A stretch of DNA of 64,000 bases from Chitinophaga pinensis (GCA_943372215.1 CALRXU020000022.1:1975-65974); one strand, 5' to 3'. Positions 8,412 to 11,416 are shown, counted from the first letter of the stretch. Notes: generated by a model from the sequence alone, not told the origin. Numbers and translations: made by a program.

Positions 8412-10142
8412 TTATAATGAATCCAAAGGCTGGTAAATAAATTTGCCTTTGCGCCATTTTACGATGCCCTCAGGCTTCCACGGCTGGGTTATTAATTTTT
8501 TATGGTAGTCGTATTCAAAGTGTTCTGGAAACTGGTAGGTGCGTTTAACCACTTGTAAATCCAGGCTATCCAATCTAATATGATGGCGGTTGGCCCAGAA
8601 CCAGAGTGTTTTTTCCAGCTCCATAGGATTGGGTATAGTGCCGCTGCATACAGAATTAAAGCTGTATTTGCTCCAAGCCAGGTTCATATTCATGGGCAAA
8701 CAATATCCTTTTTCGTTAAAATAAGGCAACCACGTTTTACGACCATCTTTATTGGTATAAGTAATGGCAAACACCGTTTTAGTGCCCATGTTGCTGTGGT
8801 CTAAAAACACCCCTCGGGCATTTAAGCCAAATAAGGTGCGGAACAGGTTTGACGGTTTCAAACTAAAATCAGTAATGTCTTTTCTGATGTGGTAGTACTT
8901 TTTAAGGCCCTCTACGGTAACTCCGCCATTTATTCTGGAAACCAGGTGGTAGGTGCTGTAAAAGGCTTGCACGCAAAACAGGGTGATACAAAAGATAAAT
9001 AATGCTTGTTTTTTTACTCCTTGCGAAAACAATGAAACCGGGTGTTGATGGGTTGCTTGTACCTGCATAAATTGATCAACAACTAATGTTGTCAAAAGCC
9101 TTGCGGGTTCCAGCTTCAACAAAAAGGCTAAAAACTTACCTGTTAAAGATGATTGGTTTAAGGCAAACTGTGCCGCCTCCCAATTGTTGCTAAACGGCTT
9201 GTTATTAACCACGATGTTGTTATTTGTGGTTTCAATCACTTCAACGTGAGCTAACAAGCCATTGAGTAGCCTTGAAAAAATAACATGACGTTTATTTTGG
9301 GCTTGTATGGTTATATGTAGCGGTGTTGATTTAAAATGCTGCCAAAATCCATCAGAAACAAATAAGAGGTAAAATGGAATTGGACCGAAACACAATAAAG
9401 GGAAAGGGAAAATGCTGGCTATTACCAAATGAAAAAACACCCCAATAGCCATGAAGTAATTGCGCCATTTTAAACTAAACAATGCAAAAATGAACAAAAA
9501 CTCCCAAACAATGGTGATGTAATTGGCGGCAATCATTGGCCTCTTTAAGTTCAGGTAAAAGTCAATACCGTGCCACTTGTTGTAAGGCATTACAGCCGGA
9601 ATCCATAAGCCAAGCCCTTTGTTCCACATCGGGGAATACAGTTTGGTAAGGCTACTGGCCCAGTACATAAGCCCCAATGAAATAAAAACGGCAGCTAAAT
9701 AGTACACTTTAGAGGTTAATGCAGGTGGACGTACTCCGTATTTTATAGAATAGGTGATGGCATCAATACTCCATATTTTATGTACGGGCATTATAATGAG
9801 TATAAAACTCCCAATTCGCAATAAATCATCGTTAAAAGAGCCACTGCCACTGTTGCTGAATGAAAAGGTAGCAATAACCACCAACAAGTAATTGATTATG
9901 GCTGAAATGCGGGTTTGCCAGCCAACCAGCAGCCCTAATGATGCGATTGCCCAAATGGACAAAAATAGCTTGGCAGGGAAGGGGTTAGGGGCTAACGTGG
10001 GAATGGTATTAAAAATGAGTGGTCGGTAATAAGCAATATGGGCAATAAAAAAGAGTAAAAACAACGCAAACGTAATGCGGAACAACGCAAAGCTTTTGTT
10101 GCTTGCGGTGCCGTCAAATAGTTGAAAAAGCCGTTTAATCAT
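8412..10142 (-). CDS. Polytopic membrane protein with an HTTM-like (vitamin-K-dependent gamma-carboxylase-like) N-terminal region
   Basis: 576-aa ORF. The N-terminus SFALFRITFALFLLFFIAH followed by many TM helices resembles the HTTM domain signature. Its start overlaps the upstream gene by 8 nt (ATGATTAA). Confidence 0.55.
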   Translation of the reverse strand: MIKRLFQLFDGTASNKSFALFRITFALFLLFFIAHIAYYRPLIFNTIPTLAPNPFPAKLFLSIWAIASLGLLVGWQTRISAIINYLLVVIATFSFSNSGSGSFNDDLLRIGSFILIIMPVHKIWSIDAITYSIKYGVRPPALTSKVYYLAAVFISLGLMYWASSLTKLYSPMWNKGLGLWIPAVMPYNKWHGIDFYLNLKRPMIAANYITIVWEFLFIFALFSLKWRNYFMAIGVFFHLVIASIFPFPLLCFGPIPFYLLFVSDGFWQHFKSTPLHITIQAQNKRHVIFSRLLNGLLAHVEVIETTNNNIVVNNKPFSNNWEAAQFALNQSSLTGKFLAFLLKLEPARLLTTLVVDQFMQVQATHQHPVSLFSQGVKKQALFIFCITLFCVQAFYSTYHLVSRINGGVTVEGLKKYYHIRKDITDFSLKPSNLFRTLFGLNARGVFLDHSNMGTKTVFAITYTNKDGRKTWLPYFNEKGYCLPMNMNLAWSKYSFNSVCSGTIPNPMELEKTLWFWANRHHIRLDSLDLQVVKRTYQFPEHFEYDYHKKLITQPWKPEGIVKWRKGKFIYQPLDSL

Positions 10143-10578
10143 GGGTTTGCGGAGTGCTTTTATTTAACGAAAAAGCAGCCCATAAAAATAAGGTTATGAT
10201 TGGGGAATGCAAATACCGGTTAATTTTAGACACAAAAACTGCATCTACACTTGGGTTATTGATAAAAATGGCCAAATAAAGCAAACCTGCAAGGCCAACA
10301 TGTAGCCACAGGGTAAACCTACTTAATCCTTTTTGACGAAAAGCCGCCTGAATAACCAAGGTGGGAAGCACAATAAAACTGGCGGTATACAGCAATGCCA
10401 AAAACCAAAAAGTGGGATGAGCGTATAATGTTGCCAAACGGGAGGTACTTAACTGATCTGGTGATAAAAAGAAGGCAACAGGTGTGTTTCTATAATCTGG
10501 GGTAAAGTTATCCTTAAAAAAGCTGATGATAAAAAGCAGCACAAGCCACCATAGGGCAAGCCAATTAAATTTTTTCAT
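10135..10578 (-). CDS. Exosortase F system-associated membrane protein (putative)
   Basis: 147-aa, 4-TM protein immediately downstream of xrtF, overlapping it by 14 nt. Size and position match the known XrtF partner family. Confidence 0.6.
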   Translation of the reverse strand: MKKFNWLALWWLVLLFIISFFKDNFTPDYRNTPVAFFLSPDQLSTSRLATLYAHPTFWFLALLYTASFIVLPTLVIQAAFRQKGLSRFTLWLHVGLAGLLYLAIFINNPSVDAVFVSKINRYLHSPIITLFLWAAFSLNKSTPQTHD

Positions 10579-11104
10579 GGTTGGGTTTAACTTGTTGTTG
10601 ATTTACCCACCACATCCACAGTAAAAATATCACCCCATAAACCATAAAAATAAATACATACCGGTGAAAAAAATCAAAGTAAGGCGATTTATGAATTTCC
10701 ATTAAGGTTAAACAGGTATTTCTGAAAATGTTTAATGCATGAATAATGAACAACCCCAATGGAATAAACCAAGCTTTTGTTCGCGCTTTTCCCGGAAAAA
10801 AAAGAATAAAAATGCAAAACAATACCAAAAGTTCTAAACCATTGCAGGATGCGCCTACCCTGATTAACGGAAAAGTGCTTTGCTCGATAAACACAAAGGT
10901 TTCGCCTGTTTTATGAGCAATATTGTAATGGGGGTGATACCCAAATGCATCTAAAAAAGTGCAAATAAAGTAGGTAATGTTTTCTGTGATAACATGGTCA
11001 AGCAAGCCTGATGGCTTGAGCAAGAATTCGTAAATGAGAAGCCAAGTGATATAGGTAATACCCGTTAAGGCTAAAAATCGCAATAATTGTTTATTTATTG
11101 CCAT
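10565..11104 (-). CDS. xrtF: Exosortase family protein XrtF
   Basis: 179-aa polytopic protein with RVGASCNGLELLVLF (exosortase-type Cys motif). The short length is typical of Bacteroidota XrtF. Confidence 0.75.
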   Translation of the reverse strand: MAINKQLLRFLALTGITYITWLLIYEFLLKPSGLLDHVITENITYFICTFLDAFGYHPHYNIAHKTGETFVFIEQSTFPLIRVGASCNGLELLVLFCIFILFFPGKARTKAWFIPLGLFIIHALNIFRNTCLTLMEIHKSPYFDFFHRYVFIFMVYGVIFLLWMWWVNQQQVKPNHEKI

Positions 11105-11125
11105 GGCCTTTGTGTTTTAGTAAAC

Positions 11126-11326
11126 CTACTTTTTTCTGTTGTAAAGTTTTTTAACGCCAATGCCTAAACCCGTTAAGGTAAGCAATGCTATGGCACCATC
11201 AATGGGTACGTCACTGGTTTCCTCAAAAATATCGCCTGAGTTAGGTGTTATTGATTGAGAGAATGCCGCCTCGGATAAAAGCAACAAAAAGCTAATGATT
11301 ATAAGTGTTTTTATTTTCTGCACCAA
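11126..11326 (-). CDS. 66-aa secreted peptide with a PEP-CTERM-class sorting signal (motif P-I-D-G); candidate XrtF substrate
   Basis: MVQKIKTLIIISFLLLLSEAAFS (signal peptide) / QSITPNSGDIFEETSDV (17 residues, 5 of them D/E) / PIDG + AIALLTLTGLGIGV (TM) + KKLYNRKK (basic tail). The stop lies 21 nt upstream of the xrtF ATG. The start codon is TTG or GTG (no ATG), which lowers confidence. Confidence 0.55.
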   Translation of the reverse strand: MVQKIKTLIIISFLLLLSEAAFSQSITPNSGDIFEETSDVPIDGAIALLTLTGLGIGVKKLYNRKK

Positions 11327-11416
11327 AATTCTATTTTATACGTCAAAACTTTTGCAATATAGCCTTTTTTAAGCAAAAATAAATATTTTTTACCAAATGC
11401 ATGTTAATAAAGTGAG

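What the first reader, a model, noticed from the sequence alone, without database searches (positions are those of the whole stretch)
8412..11326. XrtF module flanked by a 66-aa mini-substrate candidate and an HTTM-like protein
- **Seen:** four tightly packed minus-strand genes. The gap between the peptide ORF and xrtF is 21 nt. The two following gene junctions overlap by 14 nt and 8 nt.
- **Peptide layout:** the first ORF encodes a signal peptide, then only about 17 residues (QSITPNSGDIFEETSDV, 5 of them D/E), then P-I-D-G, one TM helix and the basic tail KKLYNRKK.
- **Why it fits exosortase:** that is the architecture of PEP-CTERM-class sorting signals cleaved by exosortases. If it is processed at both ends, the product would be a tiny acidic peptide rather than a protein.
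- **Linked gene:** the last gene looks HTTM-like, the fold of vitamin-K-dependent gamma-glutamyl carboxylase.
- **Inference only:** this could be a peptide-maturation or attachment system. The FEE glutamates are an obvious possible modification site.
- **Knowledge gap:** as far as I know, the cargo and function of XrtF systems are poorly defined.
Basis: partly seen in the sequence, partly recalled or inferred. Interest (0 to 1): 0.65.

Follow-up and report, generated by a model that had tools for sequence, protein, structure and literature searches.

The report
Exosortase operon with carboxylase-fold partner
This is a real, conserved four-gene operon in freshwater Bacteroidota in which a tiny exported acidic peptide carrying a C-terminal sorting tag sits beside its predicted cleaving enzyme (exosortase X type, not XrtF) and a membrane protein with the fold of the vitamin-K-dependent carboxylase, giving bacterial enzymes of that fold a testable candidate substrate.

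Summary
There are four minus-strand genes with a 21-nt gap and overlaps of 14 and 8 nt.

**What the genes are**
- **Exosortase:** best matched by NCBIfam exosortase X (166 bits, cutoff 170), not XrtF (82 bits, cutoff 90).
- **65/66-aa ORF:** a PID-CTERM mini-protein. It is conserved, under purifying selection, and covered by metatranscriptome contigs.
- **147-aa protein:** a divergent XrtX-associated membrane protein (hhalign probability 95.9%).
- **576-aa protein:** no direct HTTM hit. However, 12 of 31 orthologues hit Pfam HTTM, and its model matches only human gamma-glutamyl carboxylase structures in the PDB.

**Linkage.** The HTTM-like gene occurs only in one exosortase clade: 18 of 20 assessable loci, against 0 of 39 canonical XrtX loci.

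**Chemistry.** The carboxylase's quinol-activating Lys218/Asp263 pair is kept as K167/E214. Its glutamate-pocket residues are not kept. Some orthologous peptides contain no Glu. Glu gamma-carboxylation of "FEE" is therefore unlikely.

**Status.** PID-CTERM/XrtX exists as curated models, but I found no paper on it. The HTTM-linked clade is a new variant. The chemistry remains inferred.

The parts
11126..11326 (-). PID-CTERM mini-protein precursor. It is 66 aa from TTG 11326, or more likely 65 aa from GTG 11323. The stop codon is 11126-11128.
   Evidence: - ORF listed.
- NF046080 PID_CTERM scores 22.9 bits for residues 40-64 (cutoff 26). Orthologues score 25.7-42 and carry Pfam PF28310 PID_CTERM.
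- Purifying selection is shown.
- Metatranscriptome contigs cover 11172-11321 and 11020-11170. All five listed differences fall at third codon positions.
11258..11326 (-). Sec signal peptide (residues 1-23), with predicted signal peptidase I cleavage at AFS|Q.
   Evidence: - The layout (basic n-region, hydrophobic core, small residues at -3/-1) is read directly from the sequence.
- Gln at +1 is invariant in 13 of 13 orthologues. This fits the Bacteroidetes Q-rule (PMC5837995).
- Cleavage is inferred, not shown.
11207..11257 (-). Short acidic mature segment QSITPNSGDIFEETSDV (residues 24-40).
   Evidence: Alignment A4 shows a variable P/S/T/G/D-rich start, then a conserved (I/L/V)-F-(E/D)-x-(I/V/T)-(D/N/S)-D-(V/A/T) just before PxDG. 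There is no Cys. An acidic residue sits two positions before the Pro in all 13 sequences.
11129..11206 (-). PID-CTERM sorting signal: P-I-D-G, a TM helix with an invariant GxGxG, and the basic tail KKLYNRKK (residues 41-66).
   Evidence: NF046080 hit. P41, L49, G53, G55, G57 and L61 are invariant.
10565..11104 (-). XrtX-like exosortase, 179 aa (HTTM-linked sister clade of canonical XrtX).
   Evidence: - NF046081 scores 166.3 bits (cutoff 170). XrtF TIGR04128 scores 81.6 (cutoff 90).
- All 29 relatives have XrtX as their best hit.
- C87, R128 and H147 are invariant.
10135..10578 (-). 147-aa polytopic membrane protein. It is a divergent homologue of the XrtX-associated membrane protein.
   Evidence: - HMM hits are only weak: NF046082 11.4 bits, TIGR04127 13.7 bits.
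- Profile-profile comparison against canonical XrtX-associated proteins gives probability 95.9% and E 6.5e-9 over the full length.
- Clade-invariant motifs are KD..TPDYxNTP and K(I/V)NRYLHSP.
9327..10142 (-). HTTM (vitamin-K-carboxylase-like) transmembrane core of the 576-aa protein, residues 1-272.
   Evidence: - 12 of 31 orthologues hit Pfam HTTM, best E 4.3e-9.
- AF2 model: pLDDT 84.7, pTM 0.86.
- The top 16 PDB fold hits are all human GGCX, E about 1e-6.
- The only BFVD hit is the Yasminevirus vitamin K epoxidase-desaturase.
- Residue mapping: K167=K218, E214=D263, W173=W223, H238=H287.
9063..9326 (-). Degenerate DCC1-like (thiol-disulfide oxidoreductase-like) middle domain, residues about 273-360. 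The CxxC motif is lost.
   Evidence: Distant family members hit Pfam DCC1-like PF04134 here. In alignment A3 their DxxCxxC aligns to window QAQNKRHV. Homology of this segment is inferred from that alignment only.
8925..9023 (-). Additional long TM helix of the 576-aa protein (residues 374-406).
   Evidence: Secondary structure of the AF2 model.
8412..8924 (-). Conserved C-terminal alpha/beta domain (residues 407-576) plus the stop codon. It is probably periplasmic.
   Evidence: - Invariant residues include G439, N441, R443, F446, D448, P473, W490, W516 and W555.
- Folded alone, pLDDT is 71.5 and there is no significant PDB fold match (best E 0.07).
- The cellular side is inferred from topology by analogy with GGCX.

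Best explanation
The region is a four-gene operon of a PID-CTERM/exosortase-X-type sorting system. It belongs to a distinct clade that has recruited a vitamin-K-carboxylase-fold (HTTM) membrane enzyme.

**Proposed sequence of events**
1. The 65/66-aa precursor is exported by Sec and cut by signal peptidase I before the invariant Gln. This Gln probably becomes pyroglutamate.
2. This leaves a peptide of about 43 aa. Its 17-residue acidic head lies on the periplasmic face of the inner membrane, held by the PID-CTERM helix and basic tail.
3. The XrtX-like exosortase (Cys87/Arg128/His147), working with its 147-aa membrane partner, cleaves at or near P-I-D-G. It releases the roughly 17-19-residue peptide or transfers it to an unknown acceptor.
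4. The 576-aa HTTM-like protein keeps the Lys/acid dyad that activates the quinol in GGCX. It most likely uses menaquinol/O2-type chemistry at the membrane interface on this tethered peptide, or on its acceptor, before sorting. This is not canonical Glu gamma-carboxylation.

**Shown versus inferred**
- Shown: the genes, family relationships, fold, conserved residues, synteny, co-occurrence, purifying selection and RNA-library coverage.
- Inferred: every processing step, the substrate of the HTTM-like protein, and its chemistry.
For: **Identity**
- The exosortase best matches XrtX. Cys, Arg and His are invariant.
- PID_CTERM hits in window and orthologues.
- The partner protein is homologous to XrtX-associated proteins.

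**Dedicated mini-substrate**
- The best 120 database hits to the peptide profile are all 45-91 aa.
- Only one such ORF exists in the window.
- It is always directly upstream of the exosortase in this clade.

**A real gene**
- pS far exceeds pN.
- RNA-library contigs cover the ORF and the ORF-xrt junction, with third-position-only differences.

**HTTM-like protein**
- Pfam HTTM hits in orthologues.
- GGCX-only fold hits.
- K167/E214/W173/H238 align to GGCX K218/D263/W223/H287. The roles of these residues are given in PMC12589487 and PMC13486548.

**Linkage**
- HTTM-like is present in 18 of 20 assessable loci of this clade and 0 of 39 canonical XrtX loci. Within the clade, 13 loci have both the peptide and HTTM, none has only one, and 2 have neither.
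- The HTTM-linked exosortases form one clade.
- An 8-nt overlap suggests translational coupling.
- Peptide class tracks HTTM presence. HTTM-linked loci have acidic, Cys-free peptides. HTTM-less XrtX loci have Pro/Gly-rich two-Cys peptides.
Against: - There is no biochemical evidence for any exosortase X or PID-CTERM cleavage, and none for any bacterial HTTM protein acting on a peptide.
- The window's own scores fall just below the curated cutoffs for XrtX (166.3 vs 170) and PID_CTERM (22.9 vs 26).
- The GGCX sequence alignment is not significant on its own (E about 2). It is anchored only by the fold match.
- GGCX Glu-pocket residues are not conserved.
- The isolated C-terminal domain has no detectable similarity to GGCX's lumenal domain or to anything else in the PDB.
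- L006/L007 keep the HTTM-like gene without an adjacent peptide gene.
- Co-occurrence counts are not phylogenetically independent.
- The locus sits between housekeeping genes (fmt, rpsA) in all relatives, so part of the linkage could be inherited synteny.
- RNA-library contigs can contain contaminating DNA.
Confidence: 0.55

Rival explanations
1. One reading: an XrtF system whose HTTM partner is a true vitamin-K-dependent gamma-glutamyl carboxylase. It converts the FEE glutamates of the mini-peptide to Gla, giving a tiny Ca-binding Gla peptide.
For: - GGCX-only fold match.
- The catalytic Lys218 equivalent is invariant and the D263 equivalent is kept as Glu.
- F-E-E, or F-E-x, is present in most orthologues.
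- The peptide is tethered at the membrane face, where GGCX's active site lies (PMC12589487).
Against: - L003, L011, L014 and P0251 peptides have no Glu in the mature part (TIFDPVNDVPIDG), yet the HTTM-like gene is present at L003, L011 and L014 (P0251 sequence).
- L024/L025 and L017 have different acidic strings.
- GGCX N158/N159/H160, which hold the Glu, align to non-conserved G/S/F.
- N290 aligns to Ile. The Lys + Glu + Ile pattern is the same as in giant-virus homologues that were argued to be epoxidases and not carboxylases (PMC13486548).
- XrtF membership fails.
Confidence: 0.1
2. The HTTM-like protein does not touch the peptide. It is a quinol-dependent membrane enzyme acting on a lipid or other small membrane molecule. 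That molecule could be the acceptor onto which XrtX transfers the peptide, or the function could be unrelated and merely co-inherited in this locus.
For: - The active-site pattern (Lys, Glu, Ile at N290) is the same as in the viral vitamin-K epoxidase domains proposed to serve lipid modification (PMC13486548; the BFVD hit is that very protein).
- The wider family (3450 clusters) is mostly outside any known exosortase context and often carries a DCC1-like redox domain.
- L006/L007 keep HTTM without an adjacent peptide.
- The C-terminal domain shows no similarity to GGCX's propeptide-binding domain.
Against: - Presence and absence are tightly coupled with the peptide gene within the clade (13 both, 2 neither, 0 mixed).
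- The gene overlaps the upstream gene.
- The peptide class switches from Cys/Pro-rich to acidic exactly where HTTM appears.
Confidence: 0.2
3. The mini-protein is not a cleaved substrate. It is a stable single-pass small subunit or regulator of the exosortase/HTTM membrane complex.
For: - All PID-CTERM proteins found are tiny (45-91 aa), which is unusual for a protein-sorting tag.
- The TM helix has an invariant GxGxG helix-packing motif.
- Other PID-CTERM mini-genes lie away from any exosortase, next to T9SS cargo genes.
Against: - The exosortase keeps its catalytic Cys/Arg/His invariant. This argues for a cleavage substrate, and no other candidate substrate is visible.
- The tripartite motif + TM + basic tail architecture is that of cleaved sorting signals (PEP-CTERM, PGF-CTERM).
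- The juxtamembrane ectodomain is also conserved.
Confidence: 0.12
4. The 66-aa ORF is a chance ORF in an intergenic spacer.
For: It has a non-ATG start, is very short, and has no Pfam hit in the local Pfam copy.
Against: - It is conserved at 32-67% identity to the window peptide in the 12 aligned orthologues, with saturated synonymous and low non-synonymous change.
- It matches curated PID_CTERM models.
- RNA-library coverage.
Confidence: 0.01

Closest known systems
PID-CTERM / exosortase X (XrtX) system. Known from NCBIfam NF046080, NF046081 and NF046082, and Pfam PF28310. I found no publication.
   Same: - Same gene order: mini-protein with P-x-D-G + TM + basic tail, then a roughly 180-aa exosortase, then a roughly 150-aa membrane partner.
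- XrtX is the best HMM hit.
- The partner is homologous by profile-profile comparison.
- The mini-proteins share the tag.
   Different: - The window's clade is a sister group scoring 130-166 bits, below the 170 cutoff. Its partner protein scores 11-21 bits against a cutoff of 75.
- Its peptides are acidic and Cys-free, not Pro/Gly-rich with CWPPPC or PCGGPFPPC.
- It has a fourth gene, the HTTM-like protein, that none of 39 assessable canonical loci has.
XrtF / exosortase F system of Flavobacteriia (TIGR04128 + TIGR04127; Fjoh_1448/1449).
   Same: - A small Bacteroidota exosortase followed by an overlapping small membrane partner.
- JGI labels relatives XrtF.
- In F. johnsoniae, deleting either gene abolishes surface colonisation and biofilm (PMC10936215). 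This is the only phenotype known in this branch of the family.
   Different: - XrtF scores 81.6 (cutoff 90) and is lower than XrtX. The partner scores 13.7 (cutoff 35).
- The true XrtF locus L004 has no upstream mini-protein and no HTTM gene.
Human vitamin-K-dependent gamma-glutamyl carboxylase (GGCX; PDB 9bvq, 9l20, 9bum and others).
   Same: - It is the only significant fold match in the PDB (E about 1e-6, probability 1.0, TM 0.42-0.45).
- K218, D263 (as Glu), W223, H287, Y211, D183 and F67-R68 are conserved.
- In both cases the active site lies at the extracytoplasmic membrane face, acting on, or placed next to, an acidic peptide segment.
   Different: - 11-14% identity, with no significant sequence hit.
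- The Glu-pocket residues N158/N159/H160 are not kept, and N290 is Ile.
- It has a degenerate DCC1-like insert.
- The C-terminal domain is not detectably similar.
- The candidate substrate has no propeptide/Gla-domain architecture, and Glu is not conserved in it.
Giant-virus vitamin K epoxidase(-desaturase) domains (YsVKED A0A5K0UBG6; PMC13486548).
   Same: - It is the only BFVD fold hit (E 1.7e-5).
- It has the same active-site pattern: catalytic Lys kept, D263 replaced by Glu, N290 replaced by Ile. That paper interprets the pattern as epoxidase without carboxylase activity.
   Different: The viral proteins are truncated HTTM cores fused or adjacent to a desaturase and VKOR, and no peptide partner was found. 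Here the partner genes are an exosortase and a mini-peptide.
SdpB of the Bacillus subtilis SdpABC system (TIGR04033). It is an HTTM-family membrane protein required to mature the SDP peptide toxin from SdpC. This description is from my own knowledge of the literature and was not checked here.
   Same: An HTTM-family polytopic protein genetically tied to maturation of a small exported peptide.
   Different: - There is no SdpB hit for the window protein. Distant family members reach only 19-26 bits against a cutoff of 178.
- There is no SdpA homologue, the peptide is unrelated, and no sortase-type enzyme is involved.
Other single-target exosortase systems with small dedicated substrates, e.g. 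PExPT-CTERM/XrtJ (TIGR04200 'targ_of_XrtJ', a 57-position model seen).
   Same: The idea of an exosortase paired with one short, adjacent, dedicated target protein.
   Different: The motif and exosortase subfamily differ, and I know of no HTTM partner there. This comparison was not examined here beyond the model's name and length.

Membership tests
Exosortase/archaeosortase superfamily | Signature region with catalytic Cys, Arg and His in a polytopic membrane protein. | tested here: met
   TIGR04178 scores 54.3 bits (cutoff 23). C87, R128 and H147 are invariant in 29 relatives.
XrtF (TIGR04128) | Score at or above the curated cutoff (90 bits), and best hit among exosortase subfamily models. 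| tested here: not met
   The score is 81.6 bits, below 90 and below XrtX at 166.3. A genuine XrtF scores 204.8.
XrtF system | Adjacent exosortase F system-associated membrane protein (TIGR04127, cutoff 35). | tested here: not met
   13.7 bits.
XrtX (NF046081) | Score at or above the curated cutoff (170 bits). | tested here: not met
   The score is 166.3 bits. This is the best hit but 3.7 bits short. Clade members score 130-166, and canonical XrtX scores 187-235. The tree places the clade as sister to canonical XrtX.
XrtX system | Adjacent XrtX-associated membrane protein (NF046082, cutoff 75). | tested here: inconclusive
   The HMM scores 11.4 bits, which fails. Even canonical loci reach only 54-58 bits. 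Profile-profile homology is 95.9%, E 6.5e-9.
PID-CTERM sorting domain (NF046080 / Pfam PF28310) | C-terminal P-[IVL]-D-G motif, TM helix and basic tail, scoring at or above 26 bits. | tested here: inconclusive
   The window peptide scores 22.9 bits. Of the six same-clade orthologues scored, four exceed the cutoff (30.4-42.1 bits), one equals it (26.0) and one falls just short (25.7). Orthologues are tagged PF28310 in the precomputed data. All motif elements are present in the sequence.
PID-CTERM sorting domain | Actual cleavage by the cognate exosortase. | not testable with these tools
   This needs proteomics or genetics. No published experiment was found.
HTTM domain (Pfam PF05090) | Significant match to the HTTM model. 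| tested here: inconclusive
   The window protein has no hit. 12 of 31 orthologues do, with best E 4.3e-9. The fold match is to GGCX only.
Vitamin-K-dependent carboxylase (functional GGCX) | Catalytic base Lys218 with its Asp263 partner. | tested here: met
   K167 is invariant. E214 is invariant in alignment A1 and at least 90% conserved in the wider alignment A3. They align to K218/D263. D263E retains partial activity in GGCX according to PMC13486548.
Vitamin-K-dependent carboxylase (functional GGCX) | Glu-binding pocket N158/N159/H160 (with Y395, R436), and N290 contacting the quinol. | tested here: not met
   N158-H160 align to window G-S-S, which is not conserved. N290 aligns to the invariant I241. 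Y395 and R436 could not be aligned. The local alignment is approximate.
Vitamin-K-dependent carboxylase (functional GGCX) | Lumenal propeptide-binding domain. | tested here: not met
   The C-terminal domain folded alone gives no GGCX hit (best PDB E 0.07). Model confidence is moderate (pLDDT 71.5), so this is a weak negative.
SdpB family (TIGR04033) | Score at or above 178 bits. | tested here: not met
   The window protein has no hit. Distant relatives score 19-26 bits.
DCC1-like thiol-disulfide oxidoreductase (PF04134) | DxxCxxC motif. | tested here: not met
   The window has QAQNKRHV at the aligned position, with no Cys, and no Pfam hit.

The most novel reading that the evidence does not exclude
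This would be a new RiPP-like pathway. A bacterial vitamin-K-carboxylase-fold enzyme uses menaquinol-derived strong-base chemistry to modify a membrane-tethered, ribosomally made acidic mini-peptide. An exosortase then cuts the peptide from its PID-CTERM anchor and releases it or couples it to a cell-envelope acceptor. The modification could be at the conserved acidic residue two positions before the Pro, or in the F-E/D segment. This would be the first substrate for a bacterial HTTM protein and the first defined cargo for the XrtF/XrtX branch of exosortases.
Probability: 0.25. Interest if true: 0.85.

Novelty: new variant of a known kind. Interest (0 to 1): 0.6.

Why it matters
**Two open problems meet in this operon**
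- **Exosortase cargo in Bacteroidota.** Exosortases of the XrtF/XrtX branch have a clear phenotype: loss of surface colonisation in F. johnsoniae (PMC10936215). No cargo is known. Here the cargo candidate is a single peptide of about 17 residues encoded next to the enzyme.
- **Bacterial HTTM function.** Bacteria encode thousands of HTTM (vitamin-K-carboxylase-fold) proteins with no known substrate (3450 clusters for this sub-family alone). Here one clade is locked to a defined acidic peptide tethered exactly where the GGCX active site sits.

That makes both questions testable with one knockout-plus-mass-spectrometry experiment.

**An annotation point.** This clade falls just under the curated XrtX and PID-CTERM cutoffs. 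Some members exceed the XrtF cutoff. It is therefore likely to be unnamed or misnamed in public genomes.

Tried and rejected
- **Sequence search against the PDB.** The orthologue profile gave no hit at E<=1. A broader profile gave GGCX only at E about 2. I used it only for residue mapping anchored by the fold match.
- **C-terminal domain alone.** Moderate model and no fold match. I could not support a GGCX-like propeptide-binding domain.
- **Sigma-70 promoter and terminator scan.** Nothing above the shuffled expectation.
- **Bacteroidetes -7 box TAnnTTTG upstream of the mini ORF.** A strict match occurs in only 6 of 14 loci. Inconclusive.
- **Literature.** No paper contains 'PID-CTERM', and none contains both HTTM and exosortase.
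- **Genome-collection scan with the single exosortase.** Only 4 loci were found. The metagenome scan with the alignment was needed.
- **Peptide profile A4.** It misses the (GM)n-PCGGPFPPC peptides, so mini-ORF counts for canonical loci are underestimates. The pattern scan finds them.
- **Rejected: chance ORF**.
- **Rejected: XrtF membership**.
- **Rejected as the conserved function: Glu-specific carboxylation**.
- **Rejected: multi-substrate sorting of large proteins.** The best 120 PID-CTERM hits listed are all 45-91 aa.

Full report
**1. Observation**

The window carries four tightly packed minus-strand ORFs:
- 11326..11126: 66 aa, TTG start.
- 11104..10565: 179 aa.
- 10578..10135: 147 aa.
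- 10142..8412: 576 aa.

The small ORF reads MVQKIKTLIIISFLLLLSEAAFS / QSITPNSGDIFEETSDV / PIDG / AIALLTLTGLGIGV / KKLYNRKK. The acidic segment has four D/E, not five.

The likely start is the GTG at 11323. Near-identical public gene calls are 65 aa, and a relative has ATG at that position.

It is the only ORF in the 64-kb window with a PxDG + TM + basic-tail C-terminus.

**2. What the genes are**

*Exosortase.*
- NCBIfam puts it closest to exosortase X (NF046081): 166.3 bits, cutoff 170.
- XrtF (TIGR04128) scores 81.6 bits, cutoff 90.
- All 29 relatives examined behave the same way.
- A genuine XrtF from Polaribacter scores 204.8 on the XrtF model.
- Cys87, Arg128 and His147 are invariant.

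*Small ORF.*
- It matches the PID-CTERM sorting-domain model at 22.9 bits, cutoff 26.
- Of the six same-clade orthologues scored, four exceed the cutoff (30.4-42.1 bits), one equals it (26.0) and one falls just short (25.7).
- Orthologues carry Pfam PF28310 PID_CTERM in precomputed annotation.

*147-aa protein.*
- It gives only noise-level hits to the XrtX- and XrtF-associated protein models.
- A profile of its orthologues aligns end to end with a profile of canonical XrtX-associated proteins (hhalign probability 95.9%, E 6.5e-9).

*576-aa protein.*
- It has no HTTM hit itself, but 12 of 31 orthologues hit Pfam HTTM (best E 4.3e-9).
- Its AlphaFold2 model has pLDDT 84.7 and pTM 0.86.
- The model's 16 best PDB matches are all human vitamin-K-dependent gamma-glutamyl carboxylase: E about 1e-6, probability 1.0, TM 0.42-0.45. 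After these, E-values jump to 0.5 or worse.
- In the viral structure library the single significant hit is the Yasminevirus 'desaturase' A0A5K0UBG6. PMC13486548 describes this protein as a vitamin K epoxidase-desaturase.

**3. Is the small ORF a gene?**

Yes.
- A homologous ORF lies directly upstream of the exosortase in every HTTM-bearing locus of the set found through the exosortase where the upstream flank is readable. The one exception seen overall is the L006/L007 lineage (section 4).
- Across ten loci, the last 34 codons show synonymous differences near saturation (pS 0.46-0.90) against pN 0.03-0.34.
- Alignment A4 shows invariant Q24, P41, L49, G53, G55, G57 and L61. Q24 is the residue after the predicted signal-peptidase cut.
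- Gln at +1 is the Bacteroidetes 'Q-rule' for signal peptidase I substrates (PMC5837995; PMC10653852). This supports export and cleavage at AFS|Q.
- Freshwater metatranscriptome assemblies contain contigs 95-99% identical to the window. They cover 11172-11321 (the ORF), 11020-11170 (ORF end, spacer and exosortase start) and parts of the exosortase gene.
- The five listed differences inside the ORF all fall on third codon positions. DNA carry-over in such libraries cannot be excluded.

**4. Synteny and co-occurrence**

*Gene order.* The order NamZ - CcmB - Fmt - mini-peptide - exosortase - ~147 aa - HTTM-like - RpsA is shared by the window and by L001-L003, L005 and L089. L090 and another place share the core with partly different flanks.

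*Metagenome scan.* A scan with the exosortase alignment returned 80 further loci.
- A local profile search finds the HTTM-like gene only in the window's exosortase clade. It is always the second gene downstream.
- It is present in 18 of 20 assessable loci of that clade and 0 of 39 assessable canonical XrtX loci. Fisher p is 3e-13, but the loci are not phylogenetically independent.
- In an NJ tree, the HTTM-linked exosortases form one clade that is sister to canonical XrtX.

*Exceptions.*
- The sub-lineage L018-L021 is nested inside the clade. It lacks both the peptide gene and the HTTM-like gene but keeps the exosortase and its partner.
- One lineage (L006/L007) keeps HTTM without an adjacent peptide gene.

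**5. The peptides**

*HTTM-linked loci.* They encode Cys-free acidic peptides. After AQ|P comes a variable P/S/T/G/D stretch, then (I/L/V)-F-(E/D)-x-(I/V/T)-(D/N/S)-D-(V/A/T)-P-(I/V)-(D/N)-(G/S).

*Canonical XrtX loci.* They encode Pro/Gly-rich peptides with two cysteines, either ...PPCWPPPC(I/V/L)P(I/V)DGG or (GM)n...PCGGPFPPCP(I/V)PLD(S/N/G).

*Size.* A database search with the peptide profile gave 602 hits at E<=10. The best 120 are all 45-91 aa. PID-CTERM therefore appears to be a tag of mini-proteins, not of large surface proteins.

*Glu is not conserved.* L003, L011, L014 and P0251 read QPSATDP(T/S)IFDPV(N/D)DVPIDG with no Glu. L024/L025 read QPDTPPGDFIDTDPELPVDG. L017 reads QPNLDLFPVVEDTPVDGG. 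What is conserved is an acidic residue two positions before the Pro, and a hydrophobic-Phe pair in most sequences.

**6. The HTTM-like protein in detail**

*Family size.* A full HMMER scan of 1.84 billion representatives with the orthologue profile found 3450 clusters at E<=1e-3 and 286 at E<=1e-30. Many are 470-650 aa with both halves matched.

*Middle domain.*
- Distant members combine Pfam HTTM with a DCC1-like thiol-disulfide oxidoreductase domain in the middle.
- In the joint alignment their DxxCxxC motif aligns to window QAQNKRHV. The window's middle domain is therefore a Cys-less remnant.

*Conserved residues.* Across 43 diverse members, the invariant residues are G74, D127, Y160, K167, W173, G176, W180, G234, H238, I241 and G439.

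*Mapping onto GGCX.*
- The broad profile aligns to GGCX residues about 69-339 with a non-significant E of about 2.
- I re-aligned the printed GGCX segment to the profile. I checked numbering by the 58-residue H160-K218 spacing and by the PDB title 'K217A & K218A'.
- The mapping:

| Window residue | GGCX residue |
|---|---|
| K167 | K218 |
| E214 | D263 |
| W173 | W223 |
| H238 | H287 |
| I241 | N290 |
| Y160 | Y211 |
| D127 | D183 |
| F21-R22 | F67-R68 |

*Roles in GGCX.*
- K218 is the base that deprotonates vitamin K hydroquinone (PMC12589487).
- D263 assists K218, and D263E keeps about 25% activity (PMC13486548).
- N158, N159, H160, Y395 and R436 form the Glu pocket (PMC12589487).

*What is missing.*
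- The window protein has G-S-S at the N158-H160 position. It then has a clade-specific invariant F103-N104-D105-D106.
- The Lys + Glu + Ile pattern is the one reported for giant-virus homologues interpreted as epoxidases rather than carboxylases (PMC13486548).
- The C-terminal 172 residues, folded alone (pLDDT 71.5), have no significant PDB match. Similarity to GGCX is therefore secure only for the transmembrane core.

**7. Most likely mechanism**

*Shown:* the components, their families, the conserved catalytic residues, and tight genetic linkage.

*Inferred:*
- Sec export and signal peptidase I cleavage leave a roughly 43-aa single-pass peptide. Its 17-residue acidic head lies at the periplasmic membrane surface.
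- The XrtX-like enzyme cleaves at or near PIDG. It releases the head or transfers it, by analogy with PEP-CTERM/exosortase and PGF-CTERM/archaeosortase A.
- The HTTM-like enzyme has its quinol-activating dyad on the same side of the membrane. It acts on this head, or on the acceptor, using menaquinol-dependent chemistry. Bacteroidota make menaquinones (general knowledge).
- I put about 0.55 on this overall picture, and about 0.25-0.35 on the specific claim that the HTTM-like protein modifies the peptide.

*Rivals:*
- True Glu gamma-carboxylation: 0.1. Disfavoured by Glu-free orthologues and the missing Glu pocket.
- An HTTM function on lipid or quinone: 0.2.
- A non-cleaved small subunit: 0.12.
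- A chance ORF: refuted.

**8. Comparison and novelty**

- The three-gene core belongs to the curated but, as far as I could find, unpublished PID-CTERM/XrtX kind. The window's versions fall just short of the curated cutoffs and form a sister clade.
- The fourth gene and the acidic peptide class are specific to this clade. No paper in the library mentions HTTM together with exosortases.
- I classify it as a new variant of a known kind.
- The window comes from a lake-water metagenome. The closest genomes are Bacteroidota MAGs, one labelled Chitinophaga.

**9. Verdict**

This is a real, conserved and partly mis-named system. Interest is moderate to high. It offers a concrete candidate substrate both for the XrtF/XrtX branch of exosortases and for a bacterial carboxylase-fold enzyme. 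All chemistry is still inference.

Noticed in passing
L091:5001-5207; L092:5001-5204 and L092:9082-9312: A third class of PID-CTERM mini-proteins (AQ|PGFGDDVDDVP(I/L/V)DGGLSLL...) is not next to an exosortase. It lies beside giant T9SS cargo genes (Por_Secre_tail, 1629-2390 aa). In L092, two such genes flank a TPR-histidine kinase and a LytTR regulator. This suggests several PID-CTERM genes per genome and a possible link to type IX secretion.
   Followed up: partly
L030:898-1116, L061:5778-5972, L070:184-426, L071:5719-5943 and many other canonical XrtX loci: Canonical XrtX mini-peptides are Pro/Gly-rich with two conserved cysteines (PPCWPPPC or PCGGPFPPC), often after (GM)n or PPPP runs. The residue two positions before the Pro of PxDG is Cys there, but Asp/Glu in the HTTM-linked class.
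   Followed up: partly
L018, L019, L020, L021 (exosortase at L021:6001-6552): A sub-lineage nested inside the HTTM-linked clade keeps the exosortase and the ~145-aa partner but has neither the peptide gene nor the HTTM-like gene nearby. In L019/L020, fmt runs almost straight into the exosortase gene.
   Followed up: partly
L006:4708-5019 and L007 (same lineage): The HTTM-like gene (491 aa) and the exosortase are present. However, the 310-nt AT-rich spacer after fmt has stops in all frames and no PID-CTERM ORF. The peptide gene may be elsewhere or lost.
   Followed up: partly
window:9063-9326 (-) and proteins P0127, P0139, P0165, P0210, P0238, P0250: The wider family (3450 clusters) includes many HTTM + DCC1-like (DxxCxxC) + TM + C-terminal-domain fusions of unknown function. 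The window's clade has lost the cysteines.
   Followed up: partly
window:10135-10578 (-): The 147-aa partner has clade-invariant motifs K22-D23..P27-D28-(Y)-x-N31 and K118-x-N120-R121-Y122-x-H124-(S)-P126. These are absent from canonical XrtX-associated proteins. They may mark an interaction or catalytic site.
   Followed up: no
window:11327-11416 (-), especially 11374-11381: The 90-nt spacer between fmt and the mini ORF contains a match to the Bacteroidetes -7 promoter box TAnnTTTG (TATTTTTG). It also has a TATATTGCAAAAG string shared with L001. The strict motif is found upstream of the ORF in only 6 of 14 loci.
   Followed up: partly
window:6517-8355 (-): The rpsA ORF as listed starts at a TTG. 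Its first ~30 residues (MTAFLSERRIKYLTNNTNIQFE...) are conserved in L001. The mechanical start may therefore be real or over-extended. The spacer to the HTTM-like stop is only 56 nt.
   Followed up: no
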